From NCBI RefSeq assembly GCF_030013595.1, contig NZ_CP122769.1: a DNA stretch of 64,000 nt; one strand, given 5' to 3'. This document shows positions 50,701 to 56,700 of this stretch, piece by piece (the first letter of the stretch is position 1; every line of letters starts with the position of its first letter). Source of the stretch: Escherichia coli (GTDB lineage Bacteria > Pseudomonadota > Gammaproteobacteria > Enterobacterales > Enterobacteriaceae). The position numbers are program-made.

Positions 50701-53700
50701 AAATCCTTGGTTGTCAAGGCCATCAGGAAAATGCATAAACCCATAAACCTACATTTCCACTTTTAAGGATGTTCACTAAAGAATGATTGGAGAAAGTATT
50801 TTTGACTGGGTAATTTACGGAATATCCATTTTGATATTTGCCTCAGCACTAATTGAAGGAAAGACAACTCGCTACCCAGCACTTTTTTTCTATGGGAGTT
50901 TAATTTTAATGTTAATCCTGATAGTTGCTGGAGGCCTTAACTGGTGGTTCTACAGGTCAAAATATGGCGCAGTAATCGTTATCTTCACAGTGGTTTCTTT
51001 ACTGATGACTCGATTCCGCCTGGTCATATATAAATTAAGATTAAGAAAGTTAGTTTCAGAGATCAGATTTCGTATAAAAACGGGTTTTCGTATAATTCTT
51101 GTTTTGTCGGATAATGAGGATGAGCGTAATGTTCTGCTGTCTATGCTTAGCAACGTATTGCCAGAGCAAACGCTTATTCACACGCGTGATGCTCTCGGAC
51201 CTCATTCAGGGCCTATCCTAAAAGCTCTTGAGCTACATCATCAACAGGGAACAGGTTACATACTCGTCTGTGAACAACAAATCTCAGCGCGTACGTGGTT
51301 GAGTATCGTAGAAAATGGGAAACCTGATACATCTATAGCTGTTAATTTTCATTCGATCCCAGAAATGGAGTGATTTTTCAATGAGTAGAACCGTTTCACA
51401 AAGTGTCACAGAAGATTGTCTTTTTGATACCCGCACACAAGTCAGATTACAACTAAGTCGAAGCGTTCATAAAACGCTGGCATCTGCTAAAGAAATTTTA
51501 CAGGGAAGGGGGGTTGATTCGGTCTCTATTGAAGATCTTGTGCGAGCCTGTCTTGAAGAGAACCAGCCAATTGATCTCGCCTCACTTTACCTTGAAAATC
51601 TCTTAAAACAGAAAGGTACCAGCATTTGCGATTTTTAGTGTTTTCAAACCTATTAGATAAAATGCCGGTTGTGTTTATATAACATCAATAATTTCATGCA
51701 ACAGGTAAAACATGAGTACTCAAAAGCAACTTTCCAGAACAACCGGCACTGAACGTATGTTTAAGGAAGAGCTGGCGTTATCCTTAATTTGTTGGGTTTT
51801 CACCAGTCCATTTACCAACTGGACCGATAAAGTCTTCAGTGGTATTGAAGTTCCGTCTGAAGGACCGTCAACATTACTGGGTGAGGCTGAAAAATTCTTT
51901 CGTTTTGTCGTTAATGAAGAAGGCTACGACGCAGGAAGGGCTGCTCTTGGTCTTGACCTATGTTGTTTTTCACTTCCGTCGTGTTTGTTCCCGGACGCTG
52001 CCCTGTCTGAGGAAGAGGTTATGAGTAAGTTAACCGGAGAAGTTATCCATGGGATTCTTCTTTCCTTACCTGAATTTATTGATATGCCAGAAGTGCTCGC
52101 TTACCAGGTCAGGGATGAAATTCTTGCTTTTAACACTCGCTGTGGAGACGGGATCTTTCATGGTTGGAACACGGCTTCAGAATTGTGGAAGTTTGAAATC
52201 TTTCCCCGCACCACCATCATGATGCAGCATACTTCGGCAATACATTAAAATTAGGCGGGGCAGAATGCATAAAAAACTTTTTCTTCTCGAATGGAAACCC
52301 TGTCAGAGCCGCGTATGGGCCGGTTGGATGGCCCTGTGGTTGACTATCAGTTTTCTGATGTTATCTGCCTTGCTTATGACAGATCATCTCCTGAACAAAG
52401 TCATCCTGCCGCCAACATGGTTGTTGATCTGGTTTTCGCCAATGCTGGGGTTTTTGATAAAAGTTCGCGTCGTCGAAACTCAACATTTCCTGGAGCATGA
52501 CCTCTGTGTTGCAGGTTTCTCTTTTTACCGCTGGAAGAGGTTAGTTTCTCCCGGGCTTTGGTCAGTTGACTGTATAAATGGTCGTTTTCGCCTCAATCGG
52601 ATCACCCAGGTGGGTAAGACTATCCACTATCCATGGCGTCTCCATTATCATCCTTTGTTCATGAGCCCTATCGAACATAAATCGCATGCTGTGAAAGCTG
52701 TTTCAAAATGACTTCTTTAGAGGTTTACATGACATTTATGTTCTGCAAGGTCAGCCAGGGCAGCAAAATTGATTTGAAATAACATGAGCCTGGAGAAACG
52801 TATGAGTTATGACGATTTGCCCTATTTTCGTGACCAGATTCTGGAACGTATCGACTCGCTTAAGTGTTTTCTTTCGAACACCCCCCCGCTGATGGCAAAC
52901 CTGATGACTGTCTCCACCGTATCTCGAACAGAAGAGCGACTGAAGCAGGTTAAACCCATCAGGGTTAGTGTTAAAGACGATGCTTCGGTTGAGGAAATTA
53001 TTCAGGCACTTACTGACATCTGTGTGGATGACATAGAGTCATTAAGTCATGATTCCACCAAAGTGACCACTAAATACCCGGGTCTTATCATTGTCCCAGA
53101 AAGAGCAGATCTTCTCGAAAGCTTGATCACATCTATAAATGAAGCAAAAAATGATTTTGCTGCGGCAATGAGGCGTATCGATAATAAAAAGAATGTCCGT
53201 TTTGATAAAGTGCACAAGAAGCTCCCGGGCCTTGTCGCTATGCACTCAACAAGAAATGTCCTTTTCATCAAGTCCCAGCTTAAAAAAGTTACTTTTTCAT
53301 GGCGGCTAAACCGAAACCAGGAAGTTAAAACAGCAGAGCAACTTGTGAGTTTGTTGGAGCGCAGGAGAGCCTCAGAAGTAAAAAATGTAGCAACTACCAA
53401 TTTGAATGTCGTGTCTAATATCGATAAGGCTTTACACCGTCTTGAATTTCACCCACTGAAGCAGGGCGAATCTTATCGCCTTTGTCGAACTAACTCTTTC
53501 CCTGTTCCGATTGCTCACATTTTTGCATTTAGGCCTGAAGGGCAGGAACGAAACGGGAATAAATATGCTGAGACTGATTATTCAGTAGTAAAAGCATCCT
53601 TGCCCATTTTCGCAGCAGGCAACATACCTCAATTAAAAACGCTCTCTGACTGGGCTCCTGAAAACAGCCAGGGCCCGTCCAACCAACGGAAGCTGAGCCT

Positions 53701-56700
53701 GAAATATACAGAACTCGTGCCGGGGGCTGAGCTGGGCATTTTCATTGTCAGCCCCGAAAATTAAGGAACAACAATGCAATGGATTTCCACAGCCAGCCAG
53801 AAAATCGATGAGCGTCTCTATCGTGTCTGCGTCTGGGTAAAAAAATATCACGCTGATGCGATTAACCGCGTTGTGCTTACCGTTGATCTAAGTAAAGCCC
53901 GACATGACCCTGACGAGGACCAGGTAAGAGCAGAGCTGCTGTGCGGCCATTATTTTTTGCTTCGTAAGGAAAACGCTTCGAACTCTGCGCCTGACGATCA
54001 AAAGTTTGCTTTCCTGCCTGACGGGCGCAATCTGTGTTGGCAGACCGCAACCCCGGTGCTTCAGCATCTCCTGCTCAATAAAAACGTTCCTGAGTCGCTG
54101 AGGTTGCTTACGGACTACATACATATGCGTCTGGCCAGGCTGACAATGGTACCAATGTCCGGAACCATCATGAACGAGGCTCTGCTGGACAGCATCAGCT
54201 GGGTTAAGGTGGATTTGACCTACTTCTGGCAGTATGAACAGCTCAGCTCTCATCTGGGACCCATCCAGATAACCCACAAGGCACTAGTACGCTTCGGGCA
54301 TCTGGCAAAGAATGATGAAAACTCCAGTGCCATAAGAATCCTGCGTCAGCGTCTGTCTTCAGAATTCTTACAAGAATTTCAGATGGCTGAGGATGAGCTA
54401 AAGCGCAAACAGTCGTTGATGGGCACCATGGACGTGAAAATGCTGTTTCATGCTCATTACCCCAGCCAGAAGATGCTGGTGGCTCGATATAAAAATGGTT
54501 GGGTAATGGTGGATTGTTTTCTGTTTCATCATACCAAACCTAAGAAAAAAGCAAAAAACAAAACTACTGTGGCTAAGCCTCAACTTAAAGAGACTAAAAG
54601 AGAAGGGAGTGAAAATGGAACTGGGCATTATGGTGTGCATCGTGTTGTTACTCTCCGTGGCGGCGGCGTGGATCAGTAATAAGACAGTTGATTTGCTCGA
54701 AAGATTCTATTTCAAGCGTCCGCTGAGCATGGAGTACGCGGCATGGCTACGTGTAATGTGTGCAGGCTTGTTATTGGTTTTTATTCAGGTTGCTCCACAA
54801 TTTACACTTCTGTATACCCTTAAACTTGTCACGCTTATTAATCTTGGAATCCAGACAATGAAATTAAATGGCGTGTACAAATATAAAAGAACGGGAATTT
54901 TGCCTCCGGGAGGGGCACTCTCTAATCTCACCAGACTTAACCCGTTCAAGAAAAAATAAAGTTATGCGCCCGTGAGGGCGCTATTCATCAAAGGCATTTC
55001 GCATAAGCTTGATCATTGCTTTTTTACCAGCTTCAATATTACGAATGTAGCGCATAACCATTTCTTCATTCGACCAGTTCCCCATTTCCATAATCTGTGG
55101 TAGCGAGTAACCTTCAATATTTAGCTGTATCGCTCCGCCTACACGAACGCTGTGCCCTGTCCAGTAACGAGTTTTAGTCTCATTTGGATAAAGCTCATTC
55201 CACATCTCTTTAAATGCTCGTAAAAGGGAATTTTTGCTGAGCATACCGGCATCGTCCACAGTGTCTTCTTCATCTTCATCTTCATCGTTCAGAAGACTTT
55301 GCTTAGCACGATAGGGTAGGTTATGCCTTTTAAGAAGTTCAGATAGCTCATTCCCCTTACTCCGAAGCTTCCAGCCGGGTGGCATATAGCCTGTATCATG
55401 GAAATTTACGGCCTGGAAAAGGAATTCATCCGGATGACTGTGCTGATCCATTTTCACGAGGTTCATCAATCTCAAGAGGCAGTTAGTTAACTGACGTGTC
55501 AGCCGGTAGGTAAGAAGTGTACTAATGTTCGTTTTTGTACGGTATACCGTCAGGTTAAATTCACCGGTCATACTATCCAGAGACAGATCTTTCAGACGTA
55601 TACGTCGAATTTCGGATGAACGGAGCAGTGTTTCAAAGCCTGTCCAGATCAGGCACAGGTCACGAAGTTTACGAACTGAGTTTGTAGTACTGCGTAACTT
55701 TATCAGAGCCTTGAGATCGCCAATAAGAAAGGGAGTTGCCTGTTTAGTCGTCTTTCGCTTCCGGGCTTCCGATTGTTTTAAGGCTTCCAGCATGTACCAT
55801 GCTTCAGACGTAATAATCCCGGGCAGGTTAAGCCCTTTTTTATGGATACTATTTAAGGCCTGAAGACAGCTGTTTATGCTGCTTCGTGACAATTTGCCTT
55901 CAAGATGCCCCATAAACGCAAGCAGAGCGTCCTCAGACACGGGGAGCGAACTTACTGGCCAGTCTGTATGCAACCGGGCATTCGCCAGATACCATTCGTT
56001 CCATACTCGTAGCCAGTGCAGATAGGTTTTAGCAGTGTTGTATCTCAGATGGGAAAAGTAACGGATCAAGCGTGAAAGCTGTTTATCATGGTTGCCGAAC
56101 GTTTCCAGCTGCTGATGCAATTCGCTTTCCGAAAACTGTCTGATCACTGATTGATTCTTCATCCTGCTCACCGGGATACACTGGTTTTAATTACAGGTCA
56201 TTTTAGCACTCATGTACCTGGTTATGAACAGGGTGGAAACAACGAAAAAGGTTGTGAAATCGTTAGGCTTAAGTGAAAAATGATATTAAGATTATCCTTG
56301 GCCAGTTGAGGCCTGTCTAAAGAAGGTTGATTATGTCTGACACAAAGCAGTCTTATTTAATGAAATTCCGTAAGTGTAGTTCGTTCGAAACGCTCGAAAA
56401 AGTATTTGAAAGGTTATGTGAAAAAAACTCGGGTGTCGCCTCTCTTGAAATTTCTGGTGCTTATGATCATCGTAAAGCCGAACTGACAATGAAAAAGTTA
56501 TATGACAAAGTTCCTGCGAGTGTGTGGACCTTTGTTCGCGAGTAATTATTAATATTGGCACAACAAAAAGACTGTGCCTGGATTTGAAAATAGTTTATGC
56601 CCCTTTCGGGGCTAAAGGCATTGTAATAGCCTGTCTTTTAAAGTTGTTTATTAAGTTCGGAGAAAAACTTTAATCATAAGCCAAGCCCACTGCTAAATAC

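What the first reader, a model, noticed from the sequence alone, without database searches (positions are those of the whole stretch)
52784..53764. Plasmid-borne Tus-like protein
The 326 aa protein shows collinear similarity to the E. coli replication terminator protein Tus across several blocks, including the conserved VH(K/R)xLPGL(V/I) segment. A plasmid-encoded Tus homologue would imply plasmid-specified replication fork arrest sites. My Tus reference is recalled from memory, so this needs confirmation.
Basis: partly seen in the sequence, partly recalled or inferred. Interest (0 to 1): 0.5.

Follow-up and report, generated by a model that had tools for sequence, protein, structure and literature searches.

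The report
IncHI2 plasmid's own Tus homologue
The gene is a real but very divergent relative of the E. coli replication-terminator protein Tus, carried in the conserved backbone of IncHI2 resistance plasmids; databases and papers already name it, while its DNA target sites remain unidentified.

Summary
The ORF at 52784-53764 exists. It is a genuine, distant member of the Tus family: Pfam Ter E=6.5e-19, and an AlphaFold model (pLDDT 93) matches only E. coli Tus in the PDB, over its full length (TM 0.75-0.78). The residues that hold the flipped cytosine in the E. coli Tus-Ter lock (F140, H144, G149) and E49 are conserved. The real start is probably 52802 (320 aa).

The window is IncHI2 plasmid backbone, identical in hundreds of plasmids. 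[quoted passage not shown] Its R27 homologue (R0186) carries a Tus-similarity annotation attributed to the published R27 map (Sherburne et al. 2000). An IncHI2 paper names tus, and Galli et al. 2019 describe plasmid-borne tus genes in general.

The implied plasmid Ter sites were not found. Neither the window nor the complete plasmids R478 and R27 hold a statistically significant E. coli-type Ter site, several residues recalled as base contacts differ, and no Ter lies next to the gene. Deleting R0186 did not destabilise R27 in E. coli.

Most likely this is a polar fork-arrest protein with a non-canonical, still unknown target. Verdict: confirmed, already known, low interest. A side observation, a dispersed palindrome AAAGTWACTTT, may deserve its own follow-up.

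The parts
52802..53764 (+). tus homologue CDS, likely true start (320 aa).
   Evidence: ORF. Pfam Ter E=6.5e-19. AF2 plus Foldseek hit only Tus. [quoted passage not shown] Start supported by GGAG at 52791-52794 and by the N-termini of homologues.
53198..53236 (+). Codons for RFDKVHKKLPGLV. These hold the counterparts of the E. coli Tus lock-pocket residues F140, H144, G149 and L150, which carry the same numbers in the 326-aa ORF.
   Evidence: The pairwise phmmer alignment to 1ecr and the family alignment A1 agree. Across the 51 family members F is present in 42, H in 46 and G in 27. The roles of these residues come from Table 1 of PMC10331603.
52934..52936 (+). Codon for the glutamate that aligns with E. 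coli Tus E49, a residue implicated in slowing the approaching helicase.
   Evidence: Alignment A1: E in 41 of 51 sequences. Role from PMC10331603 Table 1. Codon position.
53285..53295 (.). One copy of the dispersed palindrome AAAGTWACTTT, embedded in tus at the K-V-T-F codons.
   Evidence: The window holds 13 copies against 0.12 expected. This copy is conserved base for base in 7 tus genes that share only 37-65% protein identity, while neighbouring synonymous sites vary.
53774..54679 (+). Downstream ORF (301 aa), 10 nt after the tus stop and syntenic with tus in every homologous locus. It has no Pfam family. The model shows an RNase H-like fold.
54609..54959 (+). Small ORF (114-116 aa) that completes the conserved tus-orf-orf trio. 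Function unknown.
   Evidence: ORF, RefSeq CDS, syntenic in the other loci.
54981..56171 (-). Tyrosine recombinase, convergent with the tus operon. It is the homologue of R27 R0183, the plasmid's own dimer-resolution recombinase.
   Evidence: PHROG integrase E=4.7e-21. RefSeq annotation. R0183 is shown to be one of two redundant dimer-resolution systems of R27 in PMC11724359. Coordinates of R0183.
56327..56545 (+). hha (Hha/YmoA family) gene, the next member of the conserved block.
   Evidence: NCBIfam Hha E=2.7e-21. Synteny.

Best explanation
The gene encodes a genuine but highly divergent Tus-family protein belonging to the IncHI plasmid backbone.

Shown: it has the full two-domain Tus fold, and it keeps the residues that trap the flipped base in the E. 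coli Tus-Ter lock.

Inferred: it binds as a monomer to asymmetric site(s) on the plasmid and stops DnaB-driven forks from one direction only. This would keep fork fusion inside the plasmid's chromosome-like terminus region, which in R27 carries the GC-skew switch, a matS site, an FtsK-dependent XerCD site and the plasmid's own tyrosine recombinase next to tus.

Also inferred: its recognition sequence differs from the E. coli Ter consensus, so it would form a plasmid-private system beside the host's Tus/Ter.
For: Family and fold:
- Pfam Ter E=6.5e-19 and NCBIfam Tus model E=2.6e-14.
- AF2 pLDDT 93.2, with Foldseek hits to Tus only, over the full length.

Lock residues:
- F140, H144, G149, L150 and E49 are conserved. 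Their roles are listed in PMC10331603.

Signs of selection:
- Full-length, intact genes are kept across IncHI2, IncHI1, Photorhabdus, Lelliottia and metagenomic relatives down to 37% identity, always in the same gene block.
- The gene is at least 99% identical in about 1100 plasmids.

Geometry:
- In R27 the cumulative GC skew peaks at 145-151 kb, matS lies at 146.85 kb, the XerCD site at 135.8 kb and tus at 162.0-163.0 kb. Tus is therefore 11-17 kb origin-proximal of the skew switch on one arm, at the end of a long array of genes co-oriented with that fork.
- PMC11724359 independently describes the same chromosome-like terminus of R27 and R478.
- In the window the skew is positive from 8 to 50 kb and flattens at 50-58 kb.

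Different specificity:
- At positions I recalled from memory as DNA base contacts of E. coli Tus, the plasmid protein differs (A173R, K175N, Q237V, Q250K, Q252V, R288P in alignment A1).
- No significant canonical Ter was found on either plasmid.

Prior knowledge:
- Plasmid-borne tus genes are described as a widespread class in PMC6549158.
Against: - No cognate site has been identified, so the fork-arrest function is inferred from homology alone.
- No Ter-like element sits beside the gene, unlike TerB, which lies 11 bp upstream of E. coli tus. In several relatives the upstream gene overlaps the tus start, so there is no separate promoter region.
- A precise deletion of the R27 homologue R0186 caused no loss of plasmid stability in E. 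coli MG1655 (PMC4853401). That host has its own Tus, and stability is a blunt read-out.
- E47 and R198 of E. coli Tus have no conserved counterpart in the alignment.
- In R478 tus lies about 100 kb from the global skew maximum. Comparison of the gene orders of R27 and R478 suggests that accessory DNA was inserted in between (inference).
Confidence: 0.6

Rival explanations
1. The plasmid Tus works through canonical E. coli-type Ter sites, either the single Ter-like core on IncHI2 plasmids (R478 188981-189003) or the host chromosome's Ter sites. In that case it would supplement or compete with host Tus, or supply Tus in hosts that lack it.
For: R478 carries GATATTTAAGTTGTAACTAATAT, whose positions 8-21 are identical to a recalled TerJ sequence. 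On my orientation argument, based on TerB and the known polarity of TerB, it would block a fork that has overrun the skew switch. The surrounding region is conserved in about 960 IncHI2 plasmids. An IncHI2 paper mentions 'a potential ter site'.
Against: The site has T rather than G at position 6, so it offers no cytosine for the lock. Its score is reached by 6.5% of shuffled sequences. The site is absent from the homologous R27 spacer, and R27 has no significant site at all. Most of the recalled base-contact positions differ in the plasmid protein. NCBIfam scores of 53 and 21 bits are far below the Tus equivalog cut-offs of 323 and 178 bits.
Confidence: 0.1
2. The Tus fold has been re-used as a general site-specific DNA-binding or regulatory protein rather than a fork barrier. 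One possibility is that it binds the dispersed palindrome AAAGTWACTTT that marks the IncHI backbone.
For: The palindrome is enormously enriched: 13 copies in the window against 0.12 expected, 47 in R478 and 42 in R27. It shares GTAACT with the Ter core. One copy is held fixed inside tus in seven divergent homologues, despite synonymous freedom. No binder was found in the searchable literature. E. coli Tus also acts as a repressor at TerB (PMC10331603).
Against: A perfect palindrome points to a dimeric binder, whereas Tus is a monomer on an asymmetric site. The flanks are symmetric and the orientation of the central base shows no polarity along the replication arms. About 45 barriers per plasmid would be harmful if they arrested forks. 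Nothing links Tus to the motif beyond co-occurrence on the same plasmids, which encode many other unknown proteins.
Confidence: 0.15
3. The gene is a relic with no present function.
For: No stability phenotype on deletion in R27, and no recognisable target site.
Against: Intact ORFs of similar length are kept across lineages that share only 37-65% identity. The fold core and lock residues are conserved, the synteny is fixed, and the model is of high confidence.
Confidence: 0.05

Closest known systems
E. coli chromosomal Tus (PDB 1ECR, 2I06, 4XR0-3; Pfam PF05472)
   Same: It has the same overall fold over the full length (TM 0.75-0.78) and a collinear alignment. The lock-pocket residues F140, H144 and G149, and E49, are conserved.
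   Different: Identity is only 16-18%, and scores are far below the NCBIfam equivalog cut-offs. Several recalled base-contact positions differ, and E47 and R198 are not conserved. There is no adjacent TerB-like site and no significant canonical Ter on the replicon. The gene sits on a conjugative plasmid inside a long operon-like array.
R27 (IncHI1) ORF R0186 and the identical pHCM1 gene
   Same: It is the direct orthologue: 59% identity, the same length and the same block of tus, orf~300, orf~114, tyrosine recombinase and hha. The annotation reproduced from the published R27 map (Sherburne et al. 2000) already notes similarity to K. pneumoniae Tus.
   Different: It belongs to a different incompatibility subgroup. 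R27 keeps a remnant ORF between the upstream gene and tus that IncHI2 lacks.
Plasmid-borne ('mobile') tus genes described by Galli et al. 2019 (PMC6549158), including the Tus homologues of large Klebsiella plasmids and of Pseudoalteromonas chromosome II
   Same: These are Tus-family genes carried on plasmids of gamma-proteobacteria. In this survey 2769 of 72,556 plasmid records carry a homologue.
   Different: The Klebsiella plasmid proteins share only about 25% identity with this one. Pseudoalteromonas tus lies next to the origin, whereas the IncHI gene lies about 56-58 kb from the RepHIA-type origin, on the terminus side.
Ter sites of plasmids R6K and R1
   Same: They are precedents for replication-fork barriers on plasmids (PMC10331603).
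   Different: From established knowledge, those plasmids carry only the DNA sites and rely on the host's Tus. Here the plasmid carries the protein, and no canonical site is detectable.

Membership tests
Tus / Ter protein family (Pfam PF05472) | Significant match to the family profile | tested here: met
   PF05472 E=6.5e-19, 68.5 bits, covering 199 of 296 model positions. The family is also precomputed for all homologues.
Tus / Ter protein family (Pfam PF05472) | Full-length Tus fold, including the C-terminal domain that the Pfam match does not cover | tested here: met
   AF2 pLDDT 93.2, pTM 0.87. Foldseek against the PDB returns only Tus chains at E about 3e-19 and TM 0.73-0.78 over about 326 columns; the next hit has E=0.22.
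Tus / Ter protein family (Pfam PF05472) | Cytosine-lock pocket residues (F140, H144, G149) and E49 | tested here: met
   All four align to identical residues in the pairwise alignment and the 51-sequence alignment. Roles as listed in PMC10331603 Table 1.
Tus / Ter protein family (Pfam PF05472) | E47 and R198 (mousetrap stabilisation and helicase interaction) | tested here: inconclusive
   They align to T and V in A1, but both lie in variable, gapped regions of an alignment with 18% identity.
Chromosomal Tus equivalog (NCBIfam NF002810, TIGR02648) | Score above the curated equivalog cut-off | tested here: not met
   53.1 bits against a cut-off of 323, and 20.9 bits against 178.3. This is a distant subfamily, not an equivalog of enterobacterial chromosomal Tus.
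Tus/Ter replication fork trap (system level) | Ter sites of the E. coli consensus (GNRNGTTGTAAYKA) on the same replicon | tested here: not met
   There is no consensus match in R478. The window has one GTTGTAAC against 1.8 expected, in a non-Ter context. The best matrix scores fall within the range of shuffled sequences (13/200 for R478, 51/200 for R27). The matrix was built from Ter sequences recalled from memory; only TerB was checked against the genome.
Tus/Ter replication fork trap (system level) | A Ter site in the tus promoter (autoregulation, as with TerB) | tested here: not met
   TerB lies 11 bp upstream of E. coli tus. The 90-bp region upstream of the plasmid gene has no Ter-like sequence and is not conserved between IncHI2 and IncHI1. 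In other relatives the upstream gene overlaps tus.
Tus/Ter replication fork trap (system level) | Location in or near the replication terminus | tested here: inconclusive
   In R27, tus lies 11-17 kb from the skew maximum and 15 kb from matS. In R478 it lies about 100 kb from the global skew maximum, with accessory blocks in between. In the window the skew flattens at 50-58 kb.
Tus/Ter replication fork trap (system level) | Polar arrest of DnaB-driven forks | not testable with these tools
   This needs biochemistry or 2D-gel and marker-frequency experiments.

The most novel reading that the evidence does not exclude
The IncHI Tus recognises a Ter sequence unrelated to the E. coli consensus. 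Together with the matS site, the FtsK-dependent XerCD site, the KOPS and GC-skew polarity and the adjacent tyrosine recombinase, it would give these 180-280 kb plasmids a private, chromosome-like termination system that works independently of the host's Tus. A bolder version is that the conserved palindrome AAAGTWACTTT, one copy of which is fixed inside tus, is part of that system.
Probability: 0.25. Interest if true: 0.5.

Novelty: already known. Interest (0 to 1): 0.15.

Why it matters
As an identification it adds nothing new. The gene is already named in RefSeq, in the R27 annotation and in an IncHI2 paper, and plasmid-borne tus genes underlie a published hypothesis that chromosomal Tus was domesticated from plasmids.

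What remains open, and could matter, is functional. I found no report of which DNA sites an IncHI Tus binds, or of whether it arrests forks. If its specificity is orthogonal to the host's, it would be a natural second Tus/Ter pair. That would bear on the plasmid-origin hypothesis, on how megaplasmids organise a chromosome-like terminus, and on Tus-Ter biotechnology.

Tried and rejected
1. Canonical Ter sites. I searched the window, R478 and R27 with exact and mismatch-tolerant patterns and with a 23-bp matrix. Nothing exceeded shuffled controls.

2. The one good R478 core (188981-189003). It lacks G6 and is not conserved in the homologous R27 spacer. I rejected it as a family-wide Ter.

3. A TerB-like site upstream of tus. 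The upstream regions of IncHI2 and IncHI1 do not share a motif. A 16-nt inverted repeat at 52673-52688 / 52728-52743 was not apparent in the IncHI1 sequences, whose alignment covers only the right arm.

4. De novo search for short sequences present at least twice in both R478 and R27. This returned the partition-site repeats, the oriT repeats, IS10, the palindrome AAAGTWACTTT, a CTGGCTAATAACCTGA family next to promoter-like sequences and a 257-bp element bounded by inverted repeats. None has the properties of a polar Ter pair flanking the terminus. One 12-mer in inverted orientation around the terminus (ACCGGCTGGCTG) lies in or beside accessory genes in R478, and I judged it to be chance.

5. 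A dif-like XerCD site in the window: none found. It lies elsewhere on the plasmid.

6. Neighbouring genes. Searches against NCBIfam and PHROGs identified only the recombinase and hha.

7. Sherburne et al. 2000 could not be read, and Gilmour et al. 2004 was not looked up, so what those papers say about Ter sites is unverified.
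Full report
**What is there**

The window holds an ORF from ATG 52784 to the stop at 53764, + strand, 326 aa, exactly as reported.

The ATG at 52802 is the more likely start. It has a GGAG 8 nt upstream, while the 52784 ATG has no such site. All homologues also begin at the equivalent of 52802. RefSeq uses 52802 in most records (WP_000119427.1, 320 aa) and the longer form in R478.

**Is it Tus-like?**

Yes, beyond reasonable doubt.
- Pfam Ter (PF05472) matches at E=6.5e-19 over residues 20-217.
- The NCBIfam Tus model NF002810 matches at E=2.6e-14.
- A direct comparison with the PDB Tus sequence is only marginal (E=0.08). It nevertheless aligns RFDKVHKKLPGL with RFEWVHRHLPGL.
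- A whole-library HMMER search found 63 relatives, several of them aligned end to end. In a 51-sequence alignment the protein is collinear with E. coli Tus over its full length at 18% identity.
- The AlphaFold model built on that alignment is confident (pLDDT 93.2, pTM 0.87). Its only significant matches in the PDB are Tus structures (E about 3e-19, TM 0.73-0.78, about 326 aligned columns). The next hit has E=0.22. The C-terminal third, which Pfam does not cover, is therefore Tus-like as well.

The residues that a recent review lists as holding the flipped C6 of Ter (F140, H144, G149) are conserved, as is E49, which slows the helicase (PMC10331603 Table 1). E47 and R198 are not recognisably conserved. 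Several positions that I recalled from memory as base contacts of E. coli Tus also differ in the alignment. Scores fall far below NCBI's equivalog cut-offs (53 against 323 bits). This is a distant subfamily rather than an orthologue of the chromosomal protein.

**Where it sits**

The window is backbone DNA of an IncHI2 conjugative plasmid. The 3.5 kb around the gene is 100% identical in hundreds of plasmids typed IncHI2A/MOBH/MPF_F from Escherichia, Salmonella, Enterobacter and Klebsiella.

The gene lies at the end of a long array of + strand genes. It is followed after 10 nt by a 301-aa ORF and then a 114-116-aa ORF. A convergent tyrosine recombinase and hha come next. This block is conserved in:
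- IncHI1 plasmids (R27, pHCM1);
- a Citrobacter IncHI1B plasmid;
- a Photorhabdus contig;
- relatives whose Tus is only 37-46% identical.

**It is already known**

- The R27 orthologue, R0186, is listed with 26% identity to K. pneumoniae Tus in the ORF annotation reproduced in PMC4853401 Supplementary Table S2; that paper cites Sherburne et al. 2000 for the published R27 map.
- Galli et al. 2019 describe plasmid-borne tus genes as a class and propose that chromosomal tus was domesticated from them (PMC6549158).
About 1100 are at least 99% identical. IncHI1 copies are about 59% identical, and the copies on large Klebsiella plasmids about 25%.

**Ter sites**

- The window has one copy against 1.8 expected, in a context that does not resemble Ter. 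It has no site within 3 mismatches of AGNATGTTGTAACTAA that looks meaningful.
- I assembled the complete reference plasmids R478 (IncHI2, 274,762 bp) and R27 (IncHI1, 180,461 bp).
- R478 has 8 GTTGTAAC, about the number a rough uniform-composition estimate gives, and no match to GNRNGTTGTAAYKA.
- I scored both plasmids with a 23-bp matrix built from the ten E. coli Ter sites. The sequences were recalled from memory, and only TerB was verified against MG1655. The best R478 site scores 19.3 bits, against 21-31 bits for the genuine sites, and 13 of 200 shuffles reach that score. The best R27 site scores 17.3 bits, reached by 51 of 200 shuffles.
- The R478 site (188981-189003, GATATTTAAGTTGTAACTAATAT) has a good core but T in place of the invariant G6. 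It lies outside the window, and the homologous R27 spacer has nothing similar.
- Unlike E. coli, where TerB sits 11 bp upstream of tus, no Ter-like or conserved element precedes the plasmid gene. In several relatives the upstream gene overlaps the tus start.
- De novo searches for short sequences repeated in both plasmids found several repeat families, but no candidate polar pair around the terminus.

**Geometry**

In R27 the cumulative GC skew has its minimum near the RepHI1A/RepHI1B origins (40-55 kb) and its maximum at 145-151 kb. The matS site is at 146.85 kb and the XerD arm of the dif-like site at 135.8 kb. Tus is at 162.0-163.0 kb, 11-17 kb before the skew switch on one arm. Genes from the origin up to tus are co-oriented with that fork.

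PMC11724359 independently describes this chromosome-like terminus: skew, KOPS, matS, an FtsK-dependent XerCD site, and a redundant tyrosine recombinase, R0183, which lies three genes from tus (adjacent to the tus operon). That paper does not mention Tus.

In R478 the tellurite-resistance region and other accessory blocks lie between tus (56 kb) and matS (114 kb). The global skew maximum is at about 160 kb. In the window the skew is positive up to about 50 kb and flat at 50-58 kb.

**Function**

The best-supported reading is a polar fork-barrier protein with a non-canonical, unidentified target. It would confine termination near the plasmid's dimer-resolution functions.

Shown: family membership, fold, the conserved lock pocket, conservation under selection, and a terminus-side location in R27.

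Inferred: DNA binding, polarity, and which sites are bound.

Against: no site has been found, and a precise deletion of R0186 had no effect on R27 stability in E. coli MG1655 (PMC4853401). That host has its own Tus, and plasmid loss is a blunt assay.

Rival readings are:
- action through canonical or host Ter sites (weak, for the reasons given above);
- re-use as a regulator or as the binder of the dispersed palindrome (see below);
- a relic, which the conservation contradicts.

**Things noticed**

(a) The 11-bp palindrome AAAGTWACTTT occurs 13 times in the window against 0.12 expected (0 of 100 shuffles reach 13). It occurs 47 times in R478 and 42 times in R27. By position it is sparse in the accessory blocks of R478 (my reading). 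In the window, 5 of the 13 copies are intergenic, lying 140-310 nt upstream of the next gene.

One copy lies inside tus at the K-V-T-F codons. It is identical in seven tus genes that share only 37-65% protein identity, while neighbouring synonymous sites vary. It is one of only two syntenic sequences of 10 nt or more shared by five divergent loci. The motif shares GTAACT with the Ter core, but it is symmetric and shows no polarity. A full-text search for the sequence found no paper connected with these plasmids.

(c) IS66-family and IS21-family elements interrupt the backbone at about 22.6-25.2 kb and 45.7-47.7 kb.

**Verdict**

The implied canonical Ter sites are absent. The finding is already known and of low interest as it stands.

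Noticed in passing
window 10608, 12682, 15649, 19735, 20918, 25994, 32517, 33196, 39647, 43392, 49093, 53285, 56736 (each 11 bp): The 11-bp palindrome AAAGTWACTTT (extended form gAAAAGTWACTTTTc) occurs 13 times against 0.12 expected by chance. It occurs 47 times in R478 and 42 times in R27, and by position is sparse in the accessory blocks of R478. Five of the 13 window copies are intergenic, 140-310 nt upstream of the next gene. A full-text search for the sequence found no paper connected with these plasmids, so it may be the operator of an unidentified IncHI backbone protein.
   Followed up: partly
window 53285-53295 (inside tus); the same codon position in L009, L010, L011, L016, L017, L019: The copy of the palindrome inside tus (K-V-T-F codons) is identical in seven tus genes that share only 37-65% protein identity, while flanking synonymous positions vary. 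This points to selection on the DNA sequence itself. It is one of only two syntenic sequences of 10 nt or more shared by five divergent loci; the other consists largely of Trp codons.
   Followed up: partly
[not shown]
   Followed up: partly
window about 22550-25300 and about 45700-47750: Two insertion sequences interrupt the IncHI2 backbone. One is an IS66-family element (TnpA, TnpB and transposase at 22635-25223). The other is an IS21-family element (IstA and IstB at 45762-47731), inserted within the array of roughly 300-aa hypothetical genes. Both raise local GC content to about 51-53%.
   Followed up: yes
window 48134-49072 and 49238-50200: Two adjacent ORFs of about 315 aa with unknown function are paralogues (27% identity over 309 aa, E=3e-37). 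They belong to a run of similar-sized hypothetical genes upstream of tus that is conserved in all IncHI-like loci.
   Followed up: partly
window 52673-52688 and 52728-52743: A 16-nt inverted repeat (GAACATAAATCGCATG / CATGACATTTATGTTC, 88% complementary, 39-nt spacer) straddles the stop of the upstream gene and the tus leader. It was not apparent in the IncHI1 sequences, although that alignment covers only the right arm. Its function is unknown.
   Followed up: partly
R478 (L006) 38981-39003, which is R478 188981-189003; outside the window: This is the single E. coli-like Ter core on the IncHI2 reference plasmid: GATATTTAAGTTGTAACTAATAT. It is intergenic, about 1.8 kb from the oriT repeats. 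It has T in place of the lock position G6 and is not conserved in R27. It may be the 'potential ter site' mentioned in the literature.
   Followed up: yes
R478 (L004) 38243-38499, which is R478 88243-88499; R27 about 152165-152420: A 257-bp element is bounded by perfect 19-bp inverted repeats (AATTGCATGTCCTCATCCC). Its sequence is closely similar between IncHI1 and IncHI2 and it lies close to the R27 skew switch. It looks like a miniature transposable element or a recombination site, and was not identified further.
   Followed up: partly
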